Positions 56 to 61,739 of a stretch of DNA of 64,000 nt are shown piece after piece. A model generated the notes under the pieces. That model was not told the origin of the DNA. It worked only from the letters and a program-made list of their open reading frames with translations, and did not search any database. This DNA comes from Escherichia phage Sa157lw. The first letter of the stretch is position 1, and each line of letters starts with the position of its first letter. Where the stretch lies: the sequence record OK322699.1; one strand, written 5' to 3'. The position numbers and the translations under genes were made by a program.

Positions 56-373
56 ATGATGGAAATCACAGAGATCGCCACGTTCGCTGATTTCCTGGCC
101 TCTCGTATGGACGAGCAGCGAGTCATCGATAAAGTGAACGCTCGTGGTAAACGCCGCCGCCGCTTGAAATGTGCCCCTGGGTTCAAATTGTCGGCTGATG
201 GTTCACGTTGTGAAGTTATGGACGCCAGCGAACGTCGTGTTCGCAAGATCGGCAACCGCAAAGCCCTCCGCTCTAAAAAGCGTATGGGAATGGGCTATCA
301 ACGTAAAATCGAGCGCCGCAAGAAAAAGGCTATGAAGTTCCGCAAAATGATGGGACTGAGTAAGAACAAGTAA
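56..373 (+). CDS. small highly basic protein, prohead core protein-like (gp67/gp68 position)
   Basis: 105 aa, Arg/Lys-rich, immediately upstream of gp21 as in T4 order 20-67-68-21; AAGGAG RBS. Confidence 0.35.
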   Translation: MMEITEIATFADFLASRMDEQRVIDKVNARGKRRRRLKCAPGFKLSADGSRCEVMDASERRVRKIGNRKALRSKKRMGMGYQRKIERRKKKAMKFRKMMGLSKNK

Positions 374-380
374 GGAGTTT

Positions 381-1049
381 ATGATGAAACTGTTGCGTGA
401 GATCACAGCGATAGGGAAGGATCTTCAAATCGGTGAGGCCACAACCTCAACTGGTGGGAAGGCCATGTTCATCGAAGGTCCGTTTGTGATGTGTAACCAA
501 GTCAACCGTAACGGGCGTAACTATGATCTACAGAAAGTGGGTATTCCTGCTGTCGAAGCATACGACAAAGAGTATATCCAAGATCGTCGCGCAATCGGTG
601 AAGTCACACATCCTGACTATCCTTTCCCTAATTTAGTGGAAGCTGCGCTCAAAACCGAATCCCTTCGATGGGAAGGCACTAATGCCATCGGTCGGGCGAG
701 AATTTTAAACACACCAAAAGGCCAAATCATTCGTGCATTGGCCGAAGCAGACTTCAATCTGGCCGTATCTACTCGTGGCCTGGGTGAGACTAAGTCGGTA
801 AGCGGTTATGATGATGTTCAGCCTGGCTTTATGCTTACCGCCGTTGACGCAGTTGACCGTCCTTCTGGACAAGTTTGTTATGTTAAGGCTGTGAGTGAAT
901 CTGTTGAATGGCAGCTGGACGAGGCTTCGGGTATTTGGATGCCTCGTGATGTTAAAGGGAAAGTTGTAGACCAGTTGGTGAAAGCCAATATCCAGGTTGA
1001 AGACGATTTCCTGCGCCGCCTTGATGCAGCATTGAATCATCTGGGCTGA
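381..1049 (+). CDS. 21: prohead core scaffold protein and protease gp21
   Basis: 222 aa; alignable by eye to T4 gp21 (NRNxRxY, HPxxxxxxxxEA, GRARI, STRGLG motifs); position before gp22/gp23. Confidence 0.9.
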   Translation: MMKLLREITAIGKDLQIGEATTSTGGKAMFIEGPFVMCNQVNRNGRNYDLQKVGIPAVEAYDKEYIQDRRAIGEVTHPDYPFPNLVEAALKTESLRWEGTNAIGRARILNTPKGQIIRALAEADFNLAVSTRGLGETKSVSGYDDVQPGFMLTAVDAVDRPSGQVCYVKAVSESVEWQLDEASGIWMPRDVKGKVVDQLVKANIQVEDDFLRRLDAALNHLG

Positions 1050-27894: not shown

Positions 27895-28182
27895 ATGTCC
27901 GGCGTATGGTGTGATGTATTATTAGTGAGATTTTCAAACGGGATGGATAACCAGATTATTTCATTCTTTTATCCTGTTCCCTTTTCTTCTATGGGTCTGA
28001 CTGTCAAGCGCGTTCTTGACATAGAAGAAAAACTCAACGCTATGCCGTATATGGCGCGACCACACGTGCTGGGTTGTGAACTGTTAAACGAAATGATGAT
28101 CGATGAGAATCTTGTTGAAACAATTATCACGCGTGAACAGATGAAAACTATACTGGCTCAGGGAGAACCCCATGTCGAATAA
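27895..28182 (+). CDS. hypothetical small protein
   Basis: ORF 27808..28182 trimmed to MSGVW behind GGAGG RBS. Confidence 0.35.
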   Translation: MSGVWCDVLLVRFSNGMDNQIISFFYPVPFSSMGLTVKRVLDIEEKLNAMPYMARPHVLGCELLNEMMIDENLVETIITREQMKTILAQGEPHVE

Positions 28183-28492
28183 ACCGTTTGAACTTAAATT
28201 TCGCGTTTGGCATATTCCCCAGGTTCCTGGGATCGCTTTTCATGTTGAGGTTCCAACATTTGAAGAAGCGCAGCGCCTGAAGAATGCTCTGGGTGATTAT
28301 GATTTGTTCCAGTTCAACAACAATATCAAGCCGGATTATTGCAATGCTTCGGGCATTCAGATTTATCAACATGATCTGACCGATGATGATCTTAATGATA
28401 TGGGTCTGGATGATCGTTGGGTTGATATGGAAGATGTTGACGAACTCAACGATTATTTCGAGCATCTGCGCAGTACAGGGTGGGAAATATGA
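28172..28492 (+). CDS. hypothetical acidic protein
   Basis: 106 aa, overlaps neighbours (operon-like). Confidence 0.4.
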   Translation: MSNKPFELKFRVWHIPQVPGIAFHVEVPTFEEAQRLKNALGDYDLFQFNNNIKPDYCNASGIQIYQHDLTDDDLNDMGLDDRWVDMEDVDELNDYFEHLRSTGWEI

Positions 28493-28797
28493 TTTCAAAA
28501 TATATTGTAAAGCCTGGGGATACTCTGTCCAGCATCGCTCTAAAATTATATGGTGATGCCCAACAGTATATCAAATTAGCCAGATTCAACAATATCCAAA
28601 ACCCAGGCCATATCACGGTTGGTCAGGTTATTTGTTTACCCACACCTGTCGAAGACAAAGAACACATTATGATTCCGGTTCAACCGACTCAGAAGTGTTT
28701 GGATGCGATAGCTGGTTTATTTCGGCCAGGTTTTTGTGATGGAACTATTGAACGTCACATTTATCAAGCGATTGTGGAAAACGCAGGTGTAAAATGA
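28489..28797 (+). CDS. LysM domain protein
   Basis: YIVKPGDTLSSIALKLYGD..QYIKLARFNNI..ITVGQVICLP is a canonical LysM. Confidence 0.55.
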   Translation: MISKYIVKPGDTLSSIALKLYGDAQQYIKLARFNNIQNPGHITVGQVICLPTPVEDKEHIMIPVQPTQKCLDAIAGLFRPGFCDGTIERHIYQAIVENAGVK

Positions 28798-29003
28798 TCG
28801 GATTAATTCGTTACCTGTTCATATTCGTAATTTCAACATTCATTTTATTTTTCTTTTTCAAATACTTGAAAGAGACTAAAATCTACCGAAGTAAACGTTG
28901 GCGCAAACGGGTGAGGGTAACTTTCCTGCTGCTGATTTCTTCGGTTACAATAACCGCACTCACATTGGGTGCATATATCTACATTTTTGAAGGGGTACAT
29001 TGA
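28794..29003 (+). CDS. small two-TM membrane protein (holin-like topology)
   Basis: 69 aa; two hydrophobic helices separated by basic loop; ATGA-coupled. Confidence 0.4.
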   Translation: MIGLIRYLFIFVISTFILFFFFKYLKETKIYRSKRWRKRVRVTFLLLISSVTITALTLGAYIYIFEGVH

Positions 29004-29794
29004 TGTTCAAGAAATTGGTGTTCGGTGCAATTATGGTTCTGGCTGCAAGTCTACTTTCTGGTTGTGGTGGCGTTATCGATGAAGGTAATGTCGGCGTTCG
29101 CACCCAATGGGGTGAAGTAGACATGAACCCTGTAACAGCGGGGATCTACACCAGCTTTGTTTCAAGCGTGGATGTTTACACGACCAAAGAAGCCGTTGTG
29201 AGTCTGACTAAAATGACGCCAAAGGCCAAAGACAACCTGACTCTGGAAGACTTGGATGTGGATGTTTATTACACACCCAATGTCGCAAAGGTTCCGTGGT
29301 TCCATACCAAATTTGCTGGCCAGAGCGCTGAACTCGATGATGGCACGATAGCGGTGGGTTTCAATCTAGTTAAAACTGCTGCAGCATCTTCTTCGATGGA
29401 CGCCGTTTCTTCTCTTGATTCTATGACAATTCACACCCAACGTGCTGAATTAGAGAAGATGATTAAAGACCGCACTCAGCAACAATTAGAGACTGCTGCG
29501 CCTGGCATGTTCACAATCACACGCGTGTTGGTCAAAAAGGCGCTGACGGATCCTTCTATTGAGCAGTCTATCCGTGATAATGTTATGGCGGACAAACGAT
29601 TGGATACGGCAAGAAAGAACGTTGAAATTCGCGAGCAAGAAGCCCAAGCGAACCAGAAACTGACCACTTCGCTGACGCCTGAATATCTTCAACATGAATA
29701 TAACATGGTATTACAATCATGTGCCAATAGTGGAAAATGTACTCTGATCGTTGACGGATCCGGCTCAGGTAAAATGCTGAACGTCGGCAAATAA
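29000..29794 (+). CDS. SPFH/band-7 (prohibitin-like) domain lipoprotein
   Basis: signal + lipobox LLSGC; GNVGVRTQWGEV start typical of SPFH. Confidence 0.5.
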   Translation: MMFKKLVFGAIMVLAASLLSGCGGVIDEGNVGVRTQWGEVDMNPVTAGIYTSFVSSVDVYTTKEAVVSLTKMTPKAKDNLTLEDLDVDVYYTPNVAKVPWFHTKFAGQSAELDDGTIAVGFNLVKTAAASSSMDAVSSLDSMTIHTQRAELEKMIKDRTQQQLETAAPGMFTITRVLVKKALTDPSIEQSIRDNVMADKRLDTARKNVEIREQEAQANQKLTTSLTPEYLQHEYNMVLQSCANSGKCTLIVDGSGSGKMLNVGK

Positions 29795-46639: not shown

Positions 46640-46708
46640 TCAACACTAAATCCTCAAGTTCGACTTTCACTTTAAATACCTTCGCATACATTGCGGAGGT
46701 ATTTTCTT

Positions 46709-47503
46709 ATGGCCATTCTAAAACTTGGCAACCGAGGTTCTGAAGTCAAAGCGCTTCAACAAAGCCTCAACAAAATCGGTTTCTCCCTTACAGCCGATGG
46801 CATATTTGGTAAGGCAACAGAGAATGCTGTCAAATCCGTTCAGGCAGGTGCTGGATTGGTGATTGATGGTATTGCAGGTCCAAAAACCTTCTATGCTATC
46901 CGTAATGCCGGAGACGCTCATCAGGAACATCTTACCGAAGCCGACTTAGTTGACGCAGCGCGTGAACTTGGTGTCGAACTGGCCAGCATGAAAGCTGTTA
47001 ACCAGGTCGAATCTCGGGGAACGGGTTTCACCAAAACAGGTAAGATCAAAACTCTGTTCGAGCGCCACATCATGTATAAGAAAGTGGCGGCTAAATTCGG
47101 ACAAGCAAGAGCCAATGCTCTGTACCAACTCTACCCAACATTGGTTAACCCCAATTCTGGTGGCTATATCGGCGGAGACGCGGAGTTGGAACGCCTTCAG
47201 GGTGCAATCGCCCTTGATGAGGACTGCGCGTACGAGAGTGCGTCCTACGGCTTATTCCAGATCATGGGGTTCAATTGCCAGATATGTGGTTATCCGAACG
47301 CCAAAGAAATGTTCACAGATTTTCTGACTGGTGAACGTGCACATCTTCTGGCATTTGTGAAATTCATCAAAGCTGACGCCAATATGTGGAAAGCATTGAA
47401 GAACAAAAATTGGGCTGAATTCGCCCGTCGGTACAATGGTCCAGCATATGCCAAGAACCAGTATGACACCAAACTAGCGGCGGCATACAAGAGTTTCTGT
47501 TAA
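46709..47503 (+). CDS. endolysin: N-terminal peptidoglycan-binding domain + N-acetylmuramidase-like domain
   Basis: ORF 46691..47503 (TTG) trimmed to ATG behind GGAGG; PG_binding_1-like LKLGNRGSEVKALQ..DGIFG; C-terminal FQIMGFN and WAEFARRYNGPAY. Confidence 0.7.
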   Translation: MAILKLGNRGSEVKALQQSLNKIGFSLTADGIFGKATENAVKSVQAGAGLVIDGIAGPKTFYAIRNAGDAHQEHLTEADLVDAARELGVELASMKAVNQVESRGTGFTKTGKIKTLFERHIMYKKVAAKFGQARANALYQLYPTLVNPNSGGYIGGDAELERLQGAIALDEDCAYESASYGLFQIMGFNCQICGYPNAKEMFTDFLTGERAHLLAFVKFIKADANMWKALKNKNWAEFARRYNGPAYAKNQYDTKLAAAYKSFC

Positions 47504-53366: not shown

Positions 53367-53747
53367 TCAATTTGTCCGTTTCAACCATATGGTGTCTGTT
53401 ATCGGCTCTGGGTTGTTGACCACATAAAACGTTATGGTTACACCCAGAGAATGATAATCTTCAGACAATGACACATCAACTGATTGTATCTCCGCTCTCG
53501 GTTCAAATAAAGCAATCGCGTCTTCAACTTTGTTTTTAACATCAACCTGAATTGTGGGATTCGTATTTTCCCCCAGCATGGTATACAGCCCAGCCCCGAT
53601 ACTTGGGTATGTCGGCCAATCCCCAACTGTTGTCATCACGATATTTCGTACGGATTGCAACACGGCATAGACACCTGTTTTCTTTGTGACATCTTTGGTG
53701 ACCGGATGCATGCCAAACTTCAGGTCAATGTCCTTGTACTCTTTCAT
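53367..53747 (-). CDS. 25: baseplate wedge protein gp25 (GPW/lysozyme-like fold)
   Basis: ORF 53367..53780 trimmed to MKEYKDIDLKF behind AAGGGG RBS; pattern resembles T4 gp25. Confidence 0.65.
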   Translation of the reverse strand: MKEYKDIDLKFGMHPVTKDVTKKTGVYAVLQSVRNIVMTTVGDWPTYPSIGAGLYTMLGENTNPTIQVDVKNKVEDAIALFEPRAEIQSVDVSLSEDYHSLGVTITFYVVNNPEPITDTIWLKRTN

Positions 53748-53811
53748 GTTAAACCCCTTTGGATATTGCCTCTCCGGCACGAGAGGGCATTATCTACCCT
53801 CGCCAGTGTAA

Positions 53812-55437
53812 TCATGCGTCTTTACCACCAAAGTTGCCGCCATTATCCTCCAGTTCCGGTTTTATATCAATTGGACCAGGACCAGAAGTAGATACTGGAG
53901 TTGCCCCAGCGCGTGATGCAGCACGACCAGCACCTTCAGCATATTTGATGTTGCCTTCAATAGTCTGCGCCACCGACAACTTATCACAAACTATTTCACT
54001 AGCCAGTATTTTAGGCACTTTTAAAGTATTGGAAACTTCCAACATCTCGCAGATGATACGCATCACGTTTTGCGCCTGAATTTCGGCCAGCTGTGAAAAT
54101 TTCATCAACGCCGTGCCAGCAACCACATTGGAGTAGTTCGATGAATGTAGATGATAGACCTCACCTGTCTTGCGCTGAACTTCAGTCCCACCAATGGTCA
54201 GGTTGTGATCACGACCAACATAGTAACGTTTGTCAAACATCGTCAGATCATAATGATCTTTGACTGATTTATTGACCACGTCCCCGTCAGGAAGCATCTG
54301 CTTATAAGACCCCGAGGAGTGCATCCAATGGAGACGTTCCCCGCCTGGTGTGTCATCAACCTCCATAATATGCCCCGACCGAGATGCCATGACATTGTTG
54401 TAAGGATAACGAGACCCGCCAGCAGAAGGAACCGACACCTCTCCTGTGTTATCAATATCTTGAACACGCCCAGAAGGAGGCGGAGTTTCCTGAACTTTTG
54501 GTGTACGATCGGGGATTGGCTCAGACCATTTACCATTTTGTTGCGCAGGAGCCGCCGATGCTGTCGTAGCAGGACCAGGCCAACGATAACCCAACACAGA
54601 TGAGCGGCTGAAGCGACTCACCTTCACAGAATCTGATTGGTTGCCTCCAATACACCAAACATAATTGGCATCGAATTTCTGTACAAACGCAACGTGTCCA
54701 AATGTTGGGTTGTTGCCACGACGGAATACAACAACTGCGCCGTAACGGGGTTCTGACAAAGGGGAACCCCATTGCAAATATGAACGAGCCAAAGCCGAGC
54801 GCGTTGAAGTGTATCCTGCTTGGATCAACACCCATCCCACAAATGAAGCGCACCAGCTGACTTCATCTTCCGAAGCGCCCAAAGATGTTGTCTTGTGATA
54901 TTCCAAAATCCTTGGGTTATTATTGAATTTGCCAGAATATTCTTTGACACCTAATTCACCACGAGCCACTGTCATCCATTTCTCAGGATCATAACCGTCC
55001 ACAGGCGGTTGAGGTTCTGGTTGTGGGTCGTCTTCAATCTTGACAGGAACATTTTCAACGGCGTTATATTTCTGTCTTTCTATAGATTGAACAACCTGGC
55101 CCAGCGCCAACGGGTTTGTGTCTGAACCATCCGTTGGTGTCGCCGCTGGCCAAACCCAGGCGATACGAATATTTTGGTATGCTTCATCCAAAGCAAATCC
55201 CATAACATCCGACCCGACTGTAATACCCGTTGGAGACCAGCCTAAACCTGCCGAGGAGGCGTTAGATGCTGGCATGAGCATTTTACCCCAAGGCAATAAT
55301 TCGGTAGGTAAGAGAGTGGTATCTTCCGTGTGTACACCATAGATGCGCACAGCGACGCGCCCGTTCTGGTCGGGATCATTCACGTCTTCAACGCGCCCGT
55401 AAAACCAACGCAAGTTGTCTAACATATTGAAACCCAT
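53812..55437 (-). CDS. 5: gp5-like baseplate central spike with CHAP/TIGR02594-like peptidoglycan hydrolase domain
   Basis: N-terminal OB-like GRVEDVNDPDQNGRVAVRIYGVHT, middle KEYSG..WCASFV..GHVAFV domain, Gly/Ser-rich C-terminus. Confidence 0.7.
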   Translation of the reverse strand: MGFNMLDNLRWFYGRVEDVNDPDQNGRVAVRIYGVHTEDTTLLPTELLPWGKMLMPASNASSAGLGWSPTGITVGSDVMGFALDEAYQNIRIAWVWPAATPTDGSDTNPLALGQVVQSIERQKYNAVENVPVKIEDDPQPEPQPPVDGYDPEKWMTVARGELGVKEYSGKFNNNPRILEYHKTTSLGASEDEVSWCASFVGWVLIQAGYTSTRSALARSYLQWGSPLSEPRYGAVVVFRRGNNPTFGHVAFVQKFDANYVWCIGGNQSDSVKVSRFSRSSVLGYRWPGPATTASAAPAQQNGKWSEPIPDRTPKVQETPPPSGRVQDIDNTGEVSVPSAGGSRYPYNNVMASRSGHIMEVDDTPGGERLHWMHSSGSYKQMLPDGDVVNKSVKDHYDLTMFDKRYYVGRDHNLTIGGTEVQRKTGEVYHLHSSNYSNVVAGTALMKFSQLAEIQAQNVMRIICEMLEVSNTLKVPKILASEIVCDKLSVAQTIEGNIKYAEGAGRAASRAGATPVSTSGPGPIDIKPELEDNGGNFGGKDA

Positions 55438-55774
55438 TAGTCAATTAGAATCATGGGTTATTTATGGCGGGGATTTGAAATCTGTCGAATAGTAATATTA
55501 TAGGAAGCTCTGCTTCCGTTCAACTTTATTCTTTTCGTTTCTACTCGCTGAAGCTCGTAACACCGCCTTGACAGGCAGTCCCATTCCAATGCCATGGAGG
55601 CATAAAGGCGAGGAAAATACTGTACACCTCAGAACATGCGTAGAAAAGGATTATTTTTGCTTCAAAACAAATTCAAACCCCAATTTACACAACACTTACT
55701 TCAGCAACAACGGTGTTATAGCAATTTAAGGTTAAACGTTCCTGTCTTAACCTATAAAACAGGTAAGCAAAGAA

Positions 55775-55800
55775 AACCCCACATTACGTGGGGTTGGAAG
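55775..55800 (-). terminator. minus-strand terminator AACCCCAC gtaatg TGGGGTT + TTCTTTGC
   Basis: inverted repeat read on reverse complement. Confidence 0.55.
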
Positions 55801-55944
55801 ATTTCTTGGACAAACGTATCTTTAGTGTCTCTGTTAGCAAATCAAGATGCCAAGGCATCGACTCGCTTATTTCAAATATGCTATAGCCATGTGCCTTTAA
55901 TTCGTCACACATCACAAAGTAGGAGAGTAAATCAATTTCAAAAA

Positions 55945-56748
55945 TTAAATGAAAATTTCAGTGACACTGTTAAATTTGACTTCATGTTCTTTCCCACACG
56001 AAGGACATTTAATTTTCGTCGCGTAACGGATACGAGGAATCTTTTTAAAGAAATCGTCGGATATATCTTGAACAATCTCAGATTCAATATTTTCCCCCAC
56101 CCATTTAACAAATTCATCTTTGACGCGTTGACGTTCTTTAGCAACATCAGGTGCTATGCCAGGCTCTGCCGGATTCTCTACTTTCCAAACCTGACCATCA
56201 TCGTCATACAAACAATCAATAAATGTCGCGATCATTTGCTCCACAGATGATGCTTCGTTGAGCACTGAGGCGTCCGAGAAGGACGGTTGACGCATCTTGA
56301 TGTGATAGCCACCAGGGAGGTCAAATGTTTCCCTGAAGCCTTCTGGGGACACGCATTTCACTTGGTTGAGGGGGATCGGTAAAACAAGTTCTTGACCACA
56401 TTCTTTAAGGCCAGAAACTGGTTCTTCACCTTCATTTGTGTCGGATGGAACTTTGTTGTTACATTTGTATCGTATCTTCATGACCTCGCCGATAGATATA
56501 CAGCGCATCTTTAAAAATACTTCTTCAGTAACACCGATTGGCAGTTTACTAAAGGGAACCCCAGCGTCAACACAACTATCAAACAGTTGCTCCAGCGTCG
56601 CCACACGTTCACTCATAGGAGTGTTCGGATCAGCAACCTGAAGTAACATGGTCTGTTGCCCTGCTGTGAAAGCGCGGTATTTAATCACCGTCGGCCAGAA
56701 ATCACTTTTGTGTGTTCTCTCAGTTTTGGGCAATGATGGTAAATTCAT
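55945..56748 (-). CDS. putative baseplate-associated protein with C-terminal zinc ribbon
   Basis: ORF 55945..56841 trimmed to MNLPSL behind GGAG RBS; co-oriented upstream of gp5; KCPSCGKEHE motif. Confidence 0.4.
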   Translation of the reverse strand: MNLPSLPKTERTHKSDFWPTVIKYRAFTAGQQTMLLQVADPNTPMSERVATLEQLFDSCVDAGVPFSKLPIGVTEEVFLKMRCISIGEVMKIRYKCNNKVPSDTNEGEEPVSGLKECGQELVLPIPLNQVKCVSPEGFRETFDLPGGYHIKMRQPSFSDASVLNEASSVEQMIATFIDCLYDDDGQVWKVENPAEPGIAPDVAKERQRVKDEFVKWVGENIESEIVQDISDDFFKKIPRIRYATKIKCPSCGKEHEVKFNSVTEIFI

Positions 56749-56797
56749 AATGTATCTCCACGGTATATTGTAACCATATTTATAATGAGGACCGAAA

Positions 56798-57322
56798 ATG
56801 CACGCGTTCTGTTTCAGTAAAGTTGGAGAACAACTTACCATTAATTATCCGGATACAAATACGGATTTCTTTGTATTGCTAACGGATTTCGCAAATAAAT
56901 TGGGGATCAAGAATATCGCCATGACTGTGGACGATATGAAATTTGGTCGTCTGGGTGTAAAAGATTTATTGAATTACGGATTCAACGTAATCATCGTCGA
57001 TCAGACATACAGCCCAATTGACGAGGAAGATGTTATTCCAGTTTGGGTTCAACGAGACATAAACACTCTGGATAAGCATTATCCCGATTGTGTCATCATT
57101 GGCGAATTAATACCATATTTTCATAAACGTCGTCGGCTTGAATCAATTAAAAGTTATTTTCAAGATAGCGATGACGGATATAAAATGGATGTCCTTACGA
57201 GCGGTTGGGTTGTGAAGAATACCACAGGCAATGCCGACCGAATTACTTCCCGTCTTTATGAATATGTTAAAGAACGGGATTATGAACTGGAGAACAATAA
57301 TGCCAAACGTAGAACGCGCTGA
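56798..57322 (+). CDS. hypothetical protein
   Basis: 174 aa, divergent from the baseplate cluster, GAGGA RBS. Confidence 0.4.
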   Translation: MHAFCFSKVGEQLTINYPDTNTDFFVLLTDFANKLGIKNIAMTVDDMKFGRLGVKDLLNYGFNVIIVDQTYSPIDEEDVIPVWVQRDINTLDKHYPDCVIIGELIPYFHKRRRLESIKSYFQDSDDGYKMDVLTSGWVVKNTTGNADRITSRLYEYVKERDYELENNNAKRRTR

Positions 57323-60608: not shown

Positions 60609-61739
60609 AACGACGTCTTGTAACAAACCGAGTAAACTACTCTTCTCAGACGCCGTCAGGTTATCATTGCCTAATATATCCCTCTGGATGCCGATAGAGA
60701 TCCTTTCGAAGTCTGCCAGGCTGATACCCGCCAAATTATTTACAAGCTGATCGAGTTGCTTGTAGGCCAGTAGGGCTTCACCTGTAAAGTTCCCTTCCTT
60801 AATCTTTTTATACAGCTGTCCGGCTTTTGACGCTGCGGTTTCCCAATCTCCGGAAGCAAGAGCATCAGCAATGCCCAAAGGAAGAAAGTCGCTGGCGAGG
60901 CTGCGCGTTTCATATTCAGTCTCCGATAATACTTTATTGTAAGAGAACGATATATTGTACTGGTTAAATTGGTCGGCGGCACTTTTGTCGAGGTCGATGG
61001 AACTGAAGTTAATAGGATGAGCCTCCGTCACATAAACACGGTGCACCACCTGGTCTTCTGTATCCATTTGCTCTATACAAATATCAGTCACGAAATCTTC
61101 GTAATAACCCATCTTGGTCGTATATGGGTCGAATATCAAATTCTTCCATTTATCCATGACCGACTTTTCATAATAGTCGTTGGCAAGGAGAAATGATAAC
61201 TCCAGATCAACGTTTGTTTTGTTGTTCGGCATCTTAATATGGTTGCCGTTATTTGTCATTGGCGTTGTATCAATCCCAGTACCAGGCAAAGAAGCAACCA
61301 TACACATCATTTGTAAGGAACGAGACGTCTGGTTTGTCCCTCCAAAGAAAGCGTTTACAATACGGGCGCTTTGTTTGAACAGATCCCCAAATGATGAAGA
61401 TGAAGGATATGCGTTGCCGTCATTGGATAGAGTCGCATTAGAATCGAAAATACCAGGCGGCAACGGGATTGTAACACGAAATCTGTTCTTGCGGGAAATC
61501 CCCCGCTGAAGCAGTTGCGTTAGAAAATTGCGATAGTCTTCCACGATGAGGACTCCATTTAAATAATATATCTGCTGATATTTATAAGGAGTTGACAAAT
61601 GGCCAAGAACGCTATGGGTGAAGAAGACCCGTTGTTGCTTCCTGCCGAGATGGACGCCCCAGAATTGGTCAAGCGTTACATCCGCAAATATCGTCAACAT
61701 TTTGGACCAGAAGCGAAACGTAATATCCGTCGGTCTCAC
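60600..61739 (-). CDS. hypothetical protein (start uncertain)
   Basis: 379 aa maximal ORF; N-terminal ~140 nt overlaps the + gene at 61599, so true start is probably internal (candidates near 61310 or 61259). Confidence 0.4.
   Translation of the reverse strand: MRPTDITFRFWSKMLTIFADVTLDQFWGVHLGRKQQRVFFTHSVLGHLSTPYKYQQIYYLNGVLIVEDYRNFLTQLLQRGISRKNRFRVTIPLPPGIFDSNATLSNDGNAYPSSSSFGDLFKQSARIVNAFFGGTNQTSRSLQMMCMVASLPGTGIDTTPMTNNGNHIKMPNNKTNVDLELSFLLANDYYEKSVMDKWKNLIFDPYTTKMGYYEDFVTDICIEQMDTEDQVVHRVYVTEAHPINFSSIDLDKSAADQFNQYNISFSYNKVLSETEYETRSLASDFLPLGIADALASGDWETAASKAGQLYKKIKEGNFTGEALLAYKQLDQLVNNLAGISLADFERISIGIQRDILGNDNLTASEKSSLLGLLQDVVKN

What the first reader, a model, noticed from the sequence alone, without database searches (positions are those of the whole stretch)
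53812..55437. gp5-like central spike carries a CHAP/TIGR02594-type hydrolase instead of a T4 lysozyme domain
The N-terminal OB domain and Gly/Ser-rich C-terminus fit a gp5-type spike, but the middle domain (KEYSG..WCASFVGW..GHVAFV) looks like an NlpC/P60-CHAP-like peptidase with a conserved Cys-His pair, implying peptide cross-link cleavage rather than muramidase activity during penetration.
Basis: partly seen in the sequence, partly recalled or inferred. Interest (0 to 1): 0.45.

Follow-up and report, generated by a model that had tools for sequence, protein, structure and literature searches.

The report
Tail spike carrying a cysteine peptidase
This is the needle-tip protein of a well-known Salmonella phage (Vi01 type) whose built-in cell-wall-cutting module is a cysteine peptidase, not the lysozyme its database name implies. 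The reading is correct, but it is already visible in public domain databases and has never been tested at the bench.

The parts
53812..55437 (-). Central spike gene (gp5-like), 541 aa. It is 100% identical to Vi01_076. The true start may be Met5, at 55425.
55141..55428 (-). Residues 4-99: N-terminal OB-fold domain. In T4 gp5 this domain is the adaptor to the gp27 hub.
   Evidence: Pfam Gp5_OB, E 5e-10. Aligns to T4 gp5 residues 6-91. AF2 gives a confident beta-barrel. E17, D21, R31, L48, W50, D84 and Q88 are invariant across gp5-type spikes.
54991..55140 (-). Residues 100-149: linker 1, Pro/Glu-rich, predicted with low confidence.
   Evidence: pLDDT 35-52. No profile match.
54568..54990 (-). 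Residues 150-290: TIGR02594 / CHAP / NlpC-P60-fold cysteine peptidase domain (the TIGR02594 match covers 154-286). It occupies the slot that holds the lysozyme in T4 gp5.
   Evidence: It is the most conserved segment in the family.
54850..54852 (-). Codon of Cys196, the predicted catalytic nucleophile (motif SWCASF).
   Evidence: Cys in 55/56 homologues. Aligns to the catalytic Cys of CwlO, RipC and Acd33800. Coordinates checked.
54694..54696 (-). Codon of His248, the predicted catalytic base (motif GHVAF).
   Evidence: 56/56. Aligns to the catalytic His of NlpC/P60 structures. Coordinates checked.
54637..54642 (-). Codons of Asn266-Gln267 (motif GGNQ), the candidate third polar residue of the triad.
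   Evidence: N in 56/56 and Q in 55/56. That either residue orients the His is inferred; it was not measured on coordinates.
54418..54567 (-). Residues 291-340: linker 2, Ala/Pro-rich. It is positionally equivalent to the T4 gp5 linker that carries the Ser351/Ala352 maturation cleavage site.
   Evidence: Low pLDDT. BLASTP places it opposite the T4 linker. E306-P307 are nearly invariant. Cleavage here is not shown.
53983..54417 (-). Residues 341-485: beta-helix-type spike shaft. The first ~100 residues are homologous to T4 gp5 384-477. The distal part lacks T4's octapeptide repeats.
   Evidence: motif YPYN..SGH..E.DDTPG.ER invariant. pLDDT about 80-89 as an extended chain. No Gp5_C hit. Periodicity is 15 residues rather than 8.
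53815..53982 (-). Residues 486-541: C-terminal tail, Gly/Ala/Pro-rich, with family-invariant motifs YA..AG.A and L.D.GGNF. Its role is unknown (tip?).
53367..53780 (-). Downstream neighbour: gp25-like baseplate wedge / sheath initiator. The annotated start in Vi01 corresponds to 53747.
   Evidence: Pfam GPW_gp25, E 2.9e-9. phrog_261..
55945..56748 (-). Upstream neighbour: gp26-like baseplate hub subunit. The longest ORF runs to 56841, but the annotated start at 56748 sits ~29 nt after a TATAAATA late-promoter motif.
   Evidence: Pfam T4_baseplate, E 1.9e-51..
46691..47503 (+). The phage's separate endolysin: PG_binding_1 + N-acetylmuramidase (PF11860). It shows that lysis from within has its own enzyme, with a different chemistry.

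Best explanation
The gene encodes the central cell-puncturing spike of a Vi01-like (Ackermannviridae) contractile-tailed phage. It is built on the T4 gp5 framework. An N-terminal OB domain docks onto the hub, a C-terminal trimeric beta-structure forms the needle, and an enzyme domain hangs between two long linkers.

In this phage family the enzyme cassette is a TIGR02594 (NlpC/P60-CHAP superfamily) cysteine peptidase with a Cys196-His248-Asn266/Gln267 active site, not a GH24 lysozyme.

The likely sequence of events is as follows. On sheath contraction the spike is driven through the outer membrane. The three peptidase domains then reach the periplasm and locally cut amide bonds of the peptidoglycan peptide stems. 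The most likely bond is gamma-D-Glu-mDAP, as for the closest structural neighbours. The alternatives are mDAP-D-Ala cross-links or MurNAc-L-Ala. This opens a hole for the tail tube.

Shown here: homology of the framework to gp5, the identity and fold of the middle domain, conservation of the catalytic residues, and the presence of a separate muramidase endolysin.

Taken from papers: virion association in a near-identical phage, and lytic activity of a 39%-identical homologous domain on a Gram-negative host.

Inferred by analogy with T4 gp5: trimeric state, timing and site of action, masking or activation of the enzyme, any maturation cleavage, and the bond cleaved.
For: - Identity. The protein is 100% identical to Vi01 'Gp5 tail associated lysozyme', and the locus is 99.7-99.9% identical to Vi01-like phages.
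- Framework. The OB domain and beta-helix start match T4 gp5 structures 1k28, 1wth and 5iv5 at E about 4e-29, in two stretches only. Residues in both stretches are invariant across 29 diverse gp5-type spikes. The gene lies between gp26 and gp25 homologues.
- Wall-directed function of the module. Its relatives are fused to PG_binding_1, SH3, LysM, SLT and lysozyme domains. The R16F endolysin is a TIGR02594 member, 39% identical to the spike domain and 95.76% identical to Lysqdvp001 (PMC10152775). The CHAP-only construct of Lysqdvp001 lyses V. parahaemolyticus (PMC9180635).
- Delivery by contractile spikes. The same module is fused to a bona fide T6SS VgrG and to a PAAR protein. NlpC/P60 or CHAP hub hydrolases are seen in the diffocin and phage 812 baseplate structures.
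- Entry rather than lysis. A separate PG_binding_1 + muramidase endolysin is encoded at 46691-47503. The 'tail associated lysozyme' was detected in CsCl-purified Sajous1 virions with 20 spectra (PMC10892097).
- T4 precedent for the mechanism: PMC3004832.
Against: - No biochemical or genetic data exist for this protein or for any Ackermannviridae orthologue in the papers I could search.
- Bond specificity cannot be read from the fold. Structural neighbours include D,L-endopeptidases, a D,D-endopeptidase/L,D-carboxypeptidase (MepS), amidases (CHAP) and non-wall enzymes such as glutathionylspermidine amidase.
- Similarity to solved NlpC/P60 structures is only 9-22% identity, with weak sequence-profile E-values of 0.01-0.14.
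- The full-length monomer model is poor (pTM 0.32). The position of the enzyme relative to the shaft, any masking, and trimerisation are therefore not shown.
- The distal shaft lacks T4's Gp5_C octapeptide repeats, so the needle may differ from T4's.
- No gp27 or PAAR partner lies in the window, and tblastn with T4 gp5.4 found none in the parts of the genome I held.
- A catalytic thiol has to stay reduced outside the cell and in the periplasm. How it does so is unknown.
Confidence: 0.8

Rival explanations
1. The domain is a cross-link-cleaving endopeptidase (mDAP-D-Ala D,D-endopeptidase, like MepS or Tae3), not a stem-cutting gamma-D-Glu-mDAP endopeptidase or a MurNAc-L-Ala amidase. It is a sub-case of the best explanation and differs only in the bond cut.
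Confidence: 0.2
2. The middle domain is a catalytically inert remnant. It would be kept as a structural spacer or a peptidoglycan-binding module, and penetration would be purely mechanical.
For: Some contractile phages lack enzymatic domains for penetration (title and abstract of PMC11948020). There is no activity data for this protein.
Against: Cys, His and Asn/Gln are invariant or nearly so across 56 diverse homologues and all 23 spike-family representatives. The domain is the most conserved part of the spike. A homologous isolated domain is lytic (PMC9180635).
Confidence: 0.05
3. The enzyme acts mainly at the end of infection, as a second endolysin or to help assembly and release, not at entry.
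For: The same module serves as the endolysin catalytic domain in Vibrio phages: ICP1 gp207 and R16F ORF233, both PG_binding_1 + TIGR02594. One paper lists the 'tail lysozyme' under 'cell lysis function' (PMC9686305), but only by name.
Against: The domain is embedded in a gp5-type spike between baseplate genes. The protein is found in purified virions (PMC10892097). The phage has a dedicated PG_binding_1 + muramidase endolysin. [quoted passage not shown]
Confidence: 0.05
4. The domain targets something other than peptidoglycan peptides. Candidates are the Lpp-peptidoglycan link, a membrane lipid (some NlpC/P60-fold proteins are acyltransferases or phospholipases), or a small-molecule amide.
For: The papain-like NlpC/P60-CHAP fold also houses glutathionylspermidine amidase and trypanothione synthetase-amidase. 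That some members of the fold are acyltransferases or phospholipases is from my own knowledge.
Against: The closest sequence relatives are repeatedly fused to peptidoglycan-binding or other muralytic domains. All top structural matches are cell-wall hydrolases.
Confidence: 0.04

Closest known systems
Bacteriophage T4 gp5 (tail-associated lysozyme, central spike; PDB 1K28, 1WTH, 5IV5)
   Same: Both have an N-terminal OB domain (window residues 7-87 align with T4 6-91). Both have the conserved beta-helix start (window 341-436 aligns with T4 384-477). The overall order is the same: OB, linker, enzyme, linker, shaft. The length after the YPY motif is similar (198 against ~189 aa). Both lie among baseplate genes.
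   Different: The enzyme cassette is a TIGR02594 cysteine peptidase, not a GH24 lysozyme, so it predicts peptide or amide-bond cleavage rather than glycan cleavage. The window protein has no Gp5_C or Gp5_trimer_C Pfam match and no 8-residue periodicity in the distal shaft. It also has an extra Gly/Ala/Pro-rich tail with an invariant GGNF motif. Maturation cleavage and a PAAR cap are not shown here.
TIGR02594-type phage endolysins of Gram-negative hosts: Lysqdvp001 / Plychap001 (Vibrio phage qdvp001), R16F ORF233, ICP1 gp207
   Same: They carry the same catalytic module. R16F ORF233 scores 101 bits on TIGR02594, is 39% identical to the spike domain, and keeps the C, H and NQ motifs. Lytic activity on a Gram-negative bacterium has been demonstrated for the isolated CHAP domain (PMC9180635).
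   Different: They are soluble PG_binding_1 + CHAP proteins of ~236-238 aa, encoded next to phoH and nrd genes. They have no OB domain or shaft and act from within at lysis. [quoted passage not shown]
T6SS spike-borne or spike-associated TIGR02594 effectors (evolved VgrG, evolved PAAR, VgrG4-linked effector of Stenotrophomonas maltophilia) and the Tae/Tse1 amidase effectors
   Different: In T6SS the module is a C-terminal toxin domain or a separate cargo, paired with an immunity protein, and is used to kill rivals. Here it is an internal domain of a phage spike, presumably making a local hole. No immunity gene is evident beside it.
Hub or tip hydrolases of Gram-positive-targeting tails: diffocin CD1368 hub-hydrolase (8V3W), phage 812 hub Peptidase C51/CHAP (9EUF, 9EUM), Andhra gp10 tail tip lysin (8EJ5)
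   Different: The carrier proteins differ and are not the gp5 OB + beta-helix framework. The targets are thick Gram-positive walls. Only fold-level similarity was found (11-19% identity).
Bacterial NlpC/P60 D,L-endopeptidases (Acd24020, LytE, CwlO) and MepS
   Same: These are the best structural matches. They share the papain-like alpha+beta fold, with Cys at the N-terminus of a helix and His on the following beta-strand.
   Different: Identity is 16-22%. The spike protein gets no NLPC_P60 Pfam hit, only CHAP and TIGR02594. The third catalytic position here is Asn/Gln, 18-19 residues after the His. From memory, canonical NlpC/P60 enzymes have a His there.

Membership tests
gp5-type central spike (T4 gp5 family) | N-terminal OB-fold domain matching Gp5_OB / T4 gp5 N-domain | tested here: met
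   PF06714 scores E 5e-10, 40.2 bits against a cut-off of 25. phmmer to 1K28, 1WTH and 5IV5 covers residues 7-87. AF2 gives a beta-barrel at residues 4-99.
gp5-type central spike (T4 gp5 family) | Conserved start of the C-terminal triple-stranded beta-helix (YPY..SGH..E.DDTPG.ER) | tested here: met
   Residues 341-436 align to T4 gp5 384-477. Y344, P345, N347, G355, H356, E359, D361, P364 and R368 are invariant in 29 spikes.
gp5-type central spike (T4 gp5 family) | VXGXXXXX octapeptide repeats / Gp5_C and Gp5_trimer_C domains in the distal shaft | tested here: not met
   No PF06715 or PF22178 hit at E<=1, whereas T4 gp5 scores both. Lag-8 hydrophobic periodicity has z about 0 here against z 3.0 in T4; lag 15 dominates instead. 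The shaft is homologous at its start but diverges distally.
gp5-type central spike (T4 gp5 family) | GH24 (T4-type) lysozyme domain between the OB domain and the shaft | tested here: not met
gp5-type central spike (T4 gp5 family) | Encoded among baseplate genes and present in the virion | tested here: met
   The gene is flanked by gp26 (PF12322, E 1.9e-51) and gp25 (PF04965) homologues. Virion presence comes from the literature: Sajous1 gp13, 20 spectra (PMC10892097).
gp5-type central spike (T4 gp5 family) | Homotrimer on the tail axis bound to a gp27-like hub, capped by a PAAR protein, with maturation cleavage in linker 2 | not testable with these tools
   The monomer AF2 model has pTM 0.32. 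No gp27 or PAAR is annotated in the window, and tblastn with T4 gp5.4 was negative. Cleavage would need protein chemistry.
TIGR02594 family (NlpC/P60-CHAP superfamily, papain-like cysteine peptidases) | Score above the curated cut-off over the full-length model | tested here: met
   133 bits against 70.55, model positions 2-132 of 132. NCBI itself names a 99%-identical protein 'TIGR02594 family protein' (P0002).
TIGR02594 family (NlpC/P60-CHAP superfamily, papain-like cysteine peptidases) | Papain-like alpha+beta fold | tested here: met
TIGR02594 family (NlpC/P60-CHAP superfamily, papain-like cysteine peptidases) | Catalytic Cys and His, plus a third polar residue, conserved and aligned to known catalytic residues | tested here: met
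   C196 55/56, H248 56/56, N266 56/56, Q267 55/56. The Cys and His columns align to the catalytic Cys and His of CwlO, RipC and Acd33800.
TIGR02594 family (NlpC/P60-CHAP superfamily, papain-like cysteine peptidases) | Peptidoglycan amidase/endopeptidase activity and a defined scissile bond | not testable with these tools
   There is only indirect support: lytic activity of the homologous Plychap001 (PMC9180635), and fusion partners that bind or cut peptidoglycan.

The most novel reading that the evidence does not exclude
The very same TIGR02594 module is used as a T6SS toxin on VgrG or PAAR spikes, and those toxins come with periplasmic immunity proteins. Bacteria carrying such immunity genes could therefore also neutralise the spike enzyme of incoming Ackermannviridae phages. 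T6SS immunity would then double as a phage-entry block, analogous to T4 Spackle inhibiting the gp5 lysozyme. Conversely, these phages might encode an unrecognised inhibitor of their own spike peptidase for superinfection exclusion. Nothing in my evidence tests this. It rests only on the shared module (PMC13055248).
Probability: 0.05. Interest if true: 0.7.

Novelty: already known. Interest (0 to 1): 0.25.

Why it matters
The value is mostly in annotation and experimental design.

- **Annotation.** About 280 Ackermannviridae genome records carry this protein over at least 80% of its length at 60% identity or more. [quoted passage not shown] At least one paper treats it as a lysozyme or lysis protein (PMC9686305). 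The label has apparently leaked onto unrelated endolysins such as ICP1 gp207.
- **Experiments.** The predicted chemistry is thiol-dependent cleavage of peptide or amide bonds. This matters for anyone engineering these phages or tailocins, or mining the spike as an enzybiotic. Assays need reducing conditions and peptide-bond read-outs, not muramidase read-outs.
- **Biology.** A 2017 review noted that virion-associated lysins of Gram-negative phages are overwhelmingly glycosidases, and that endopeptidase activity had been shown for only one, phi6 P5 (PMC5380687). Showing activity for this spike would add a whole family of widely used biocontrol phages to that short list.
- **Modularity.** The finding also illustrates that the gp5 framework is a slot accepting many different wall-degrading cassettes.

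None of this overturns a concept.

Tried and rejected
- **T4-lysozyme fold for the middle domain.** Rejected on three grounds: no PF00959 hit, no alignment to T4 gp5 over residues 88-337, and an NlpC/P60 fold.
- **Published recognition of the CHAP domain in Ackermannviridae gp5.** I ran six full-text searches that returned results and read five papers. None of them mentions it. The genus-defining paper PMC4174289 is not held, so absence is not proven.
- **PAAR tip or gp27 partner near the gene.** Neither is annotated in the window or in the Vi01 stretches I fetched. tblastn with T4 gp5.4 gave only noise, with E>=0.5. This is inconclusive, because about 30 kb of the reference genome was not inspected.
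- **A hidden gene or RNA in the 507-nt gap between gp26 and the spike gene.** No credible ORF was found. The only Rfam match was isrJ at 19 bits, E 0.48. Only a terminator-like hairpin was found.
- **Full-length monomer model.** It was useful for domain limits only (pTM 0.32) and could not show whether the shaft masks the active site.
- **ICP1 'gp5' as a second example of a CHAP spike.** Rejected. It is a 238-aa PG_binding_1 + TIGR02594 protein without an OB domain, and is most likely the endolysin.
- **T4-style octapeptide repeats in the distal shaft.** Not found.
Full report
**What is at the coordinates.** Window 53812..55437 is one ATG-to-stop ORF on the minus strand, encoding 541 aa. The surrounding 3.7 kb is 99.7-99.9% identical to Salmonella phages AR2819, SilasIsHot and Vi01. 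The protein is 100% identical to Vi01_076, "Gp5 tail associated lysozyme". The window is therefore a Vi01-like Kuttervirus of the family Ackermannviridae. On the same strand the gene is preceded by a gp26-type hub subunit (PF12322, E 1.9e-51) and followed by a gp25-type wedge/sheath-initiator protein (PF04965, E 2.9e-9).

**Domain content.** The profile matches are:

| Library | Model | Result | Residues |
|---|---|---|---|
| Pfam | Gp5_OB | E 5e-10 | 39-98 |
| Pfam | CHAP | E 3.5e-10 | 191-266 |
| Pfam | Phage_lysozyme | no hit at E<=1 | none |
| NCBIfam | TIGR02594 | E 8.1e-39, 133 bits (cut-off 70.55), whole model | 154-286 |

Against PDB sequences, T4 gp5 (1K28, 1WTH, 5IV5) and another central spike (9F4A) match in exactly two stretches. 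[quoted passage not shown] Nothing matches in between. T4 gp5 itself scores Gp5_OB + Phage_lysozyme + Gp5_C + Gp5_trimer_C. The framework is therefore gp5-like and the cassette in the middle is different.

I modelled residues 140-300 with an alignment of 56 homologues, obtaining pLDDT 93.3 and pTM 0.88.
- Foldseek against the PDB returned NlpC/P60 autolysins (Acd33800, Acd24020), MepS, and the CHAP domains of LysGH15 and LysK.
- No lysozyme-fold protein appears in either list.

The middle domain is a papain-like cysteine peptidase, so the refutation criterion was not met.

**Is it likely to be active?**
- In the 56-sequence alignment W195 is invariant. C196 is present in 55/56, H248 in 56/56, G265-N266 in 56/56 and Q267 in 55/56.
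- A profile of that alignment places its Cys and His columns on the catalytic Cys and His of CwlO, RipC, Acd33800 and CD630_03720. The E-values are weak (0.01-0.14) but consistent with the fold result.
- All 23 cluster representatives of the spike family, down to 60% identity, keep WC...HV...GGNQ.
- The CHAP segment is the most conserved part of the protein within the family. Its mean identity is 0.85, against 0.71 for the OB domain and 0.77 for the shaft start.

This pattern is what purifying selection on an enzyme would give. It is not what a decaying spacer would give.

**What the module does elsewhere.** The domain family is large: 8,368 cluster representatives at E<=1e-3 and 4,679 at E<=1e-10.
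- Most relatives are small stand-alone proteins, or fusions to PG_binding_1, PG_binding_3, SH3, LysM, SLT or phage-lysozyme domains. All of these are wall-directed contexts.
- The endolysin of Vibrio phage R16F is PG_binding_1 + TIGR02594 (101 bits) and is 39% identical to the spike domain, with the C, H and NQ motifs conserved. It is 95.76% identical to Lysqdvp001 (PMC10152775). The CHAP-only fragment of Lysqdvp001, called Plychap001, lyses V. parahaemolyticus (PMC9180635). This is the nearest experimental anchor. The cleaved bond was not determined in that work.
- The same module is fused to a bona fide T6SS VgrG (P0283: TIGR03361 at 606 bits + TIGR02594 at 127 bits) and to a PAAR protein (P0246). 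It is also the effector linked to VgrG4 in Stenotrophomonas maltophilia (PMC13055248).
- Other phage gp5-OB spikes carry it too. P0188 and P0026 are OB + SLT + TIGR02594/CHAP, P0309 also has it, and Rhizobium phage RL38J1 has a short 288-aa OB + CHAP protein, a split gp5.

**The gp5 framework as a slot.** Across 29 gp5-type spikes the OB residues and the motif YPYN-V--S-SGH--E-DDTPG-ER are invariant. The segment between them ranges from 55 to 557 aa. Depending on the protein, the slot carries one of the following:
- a T4-type lysozyme;
- SLT + CHAP;
- Peptidase_M15_4;
- Peptidase_M15_3 + Phage_lysozyme2;
- nothing recognisable.

The Ackermannviridae spike is one variant of this modular design.

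**Entry, not lysis.** The window also encodes a classical endolysin at 46691..47503, with PG_binding_1 + N-acetylmuramidase PF11860 (E 4.4e-58). Mass spectrometry of CsCl-purified virions of the near-identical phage Sajous1 recovered the "tail associated lysozyme" with 20 spectra (PMC10892097). [quoted passage not shown] Its enzyme sits beside the beta-helix, is about 90% inhibited in the assembled trimer, and is released in the periplasm after the helix dissociates (PMC3004832). By analogy, and only by analogy, the Vi01-type spike should deliver three cysteine-peptidase domains to the periplasm to open the murein locally.

**Architecture from the full-length model.** The monomer model is poor overall (pLDDT 65, pTM 0.32) but is informative per segment.

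| Residues | Segment | Model confidence |
|---|---|---|
| 4-99 | OB domain | confident |
| 100-147 | linker 1 | low |
| 150-290 | peptidase domain | confident |
| 294-345 | linker 2 | low |
| 346-485 | shaft | extended chain, pLDDT about 80-89 |
| 486-541 | C-terminal tail | low |

BLASTP places linker 2 opposite the T4 linker that holds the Ser351/Ala352 maturation site (PMC3004832). Whether it is cleaved here is unknown.

The distal shaft is not T4-like in detail. There is no Gp5_C hit. Lag-8 hydrophobic periodicity is absent (z about 0, against 3.0 in T4). A 15-residue periodicity stands out instead (z 3.8, P about 0.003 over lags) and recurs in several family members. The last ~46 residues are Gly/Ala/Pro-rich but contain invariant YA..AG.A and L.D.GGNF motifs. 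Serratia- and Erwinia-phage-type members add a further ~70-aa C-terminal domain. The homology that counts lies further upstream.

**What remains unproven.**
- The scissile bond. The best structural neighbours are gamma-D-Glu-mDAP endopeptidases. However, MepS and Tae3 (mDAP-D-Ala) and CHAP amidases share the fold.
- The trimeric state, the axial position, masking of the active site, any maturation cleavage and the presence of a PAAR cap. No gp27 or PAAR gene lies in the window, and a tblastn with T4 gp5.4 was negative in the parts of the genome I held.
- How a catalytic thiol is kept reduced.

**Novelty and score.** The sequence has been public since the Vi01 genome. Pfam's precomputed calls for it are CHAP + Gp5_OB, and NCBI names a 99%-identical copy "TIGR02594 family protein". 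The domain identity is therefore already known at the database level.

I found no paper that comments on it. Several papers keep the name "tail lysozyme", and the name appears to have spread to a Vibrio phage endolysin. A 2017 review states that virion-associated lysins of Gram-negative phages are almost all glycosidases, and that endopeptidase activity had been shown for only one, phi6 P5 (PMC5380687). A bench demonstration would therefore be a modest but real addition.

A specialist would not be surprised, and no open question becomes newly testable. Interest is 0.25.

Noticed in passing
window 55438-55944 (minus strand): There is a 507-nt gap between the gp26 stop codon and the spike ATG, which is unusual for this compact genome. 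It holds a terminator-like hairpin at 55795..55775 (AACCCCACGTAATGTGGGGTT followed by TTCTTTGC). About 330 nt follow with no credible ORF. A one-mismatch late-promoter-like CATAAATA sits ~25 nt before the spike ATG. Rfam gave only isrJ at 19 bits, E 0.48.
   Followed up: partly
window 56777-56784 (-) and 61579-61586 (-): Exact T4-type late-promoter motifs (TATAAATA) are present at both sites. The first is ~29 nt upstream of ATG 56748, the start annotated for gp26 in Vi01. The 298-aa ORF starting at 56841 is therefore probably too long, and the likely length is 267 aa. The second precedes the baseplate tail-tube gene. Three matches in 64 kb is not more than chance gives (31 of 100 shuffles reach it), so only the positions are suggestive.
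   Followed up: partly
window 55423-55437 (-): Close homologues of the spike (P0002 at 537 aa, P0003 and others) begin at the residue corresponding to Met5 (MLDNLRW). The real start codon may be 55425, not 55437.
   Followed up: no
window 53983-54240 (-), spike residues ~400-485 (the test covered residues 400-500): The distal shaft shows a 15-residue hydrophobic periodicity (autocorrelation 0.33, z 3.8, P about 0.003 over lags 1-20). T4 gp5C has an 8-residue repeat instead. The 15-residue signal recurs in P0008, P0013 and P0023 and is weaker in P0016 and P0021. The underlying fold is unexplained.
   Followed up: partly
window 53815-53982 (-), spike residues 486-541: The C-terminal tail is predicted with low confidence, yet it carries family-invariant motifs (YA..AG.A and L.D.GGNF). 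The Serratia and Erwinia phage representatives (P0014, P0016) and related metagenomic ones (605-617 aa) add a ~70-aa extra C-terminal domain ending ...SNG..WE. The function is unknown; it may be a tip or a PAAR-docking element.
   Followed up: no
L004:3752-4468 (Vibrio phage ICP1 gp207): [quoted passage not shown] It is in fact a 238-aa PG_binding_1 + TIGR02594 protein without an OB domain, lying between nrdB and phoH. It is most likely the ICP1 endolysin, and the name was probably propagated from Vi01-type spikes.
   Followed up: yes
window 28172-29794 (+): This is a small cluster of four genes. The first is a superinfection-exclusion-like protein (phrog_1510, 28172..28492). The second is a 105-aa protein whose N-terminal sequence resembles a LysM motif (not profile-tested); its PHROG hits are to endolysin families, and RefSeq calls it 'endolysin' (28480..28797). 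The third is a 69-aa hydrophobic protein of unknown function (28794..29003). The fourth is a lipoprotein (phrog_200, 29000..29794). It could be a wall- or envelope-related cassette. No catalytic domain was seen in the 'endolysin'.
   Followed up: partly
window 46691-47503 (+): The true endolysin is PG_binding_1 + PF11860 N-acetylmuramidase. The listed ORF starts at a TTG, but the Vi01 annotation corresponds to the ATG at 46709 (MAILKLG...). It sits in the order endolysin, phoH, nrdA, nrdB. The TIGR02594 endolysins of ICP1 and R16F occupy the same neighbourhood next to phoH and the nrd genes.
   Followed up: partly
L005:3971-4837 (Rhizobium phage RL38J1_064): This is a 288-aa OB + TIGR02594 protein without a shaft. 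It is a split gp5, as described for phiM9 and P10VF in PMC4621102. The enzyme-bearing half and the needle half can therefore be separate polypeptides.
   Followed up: partly
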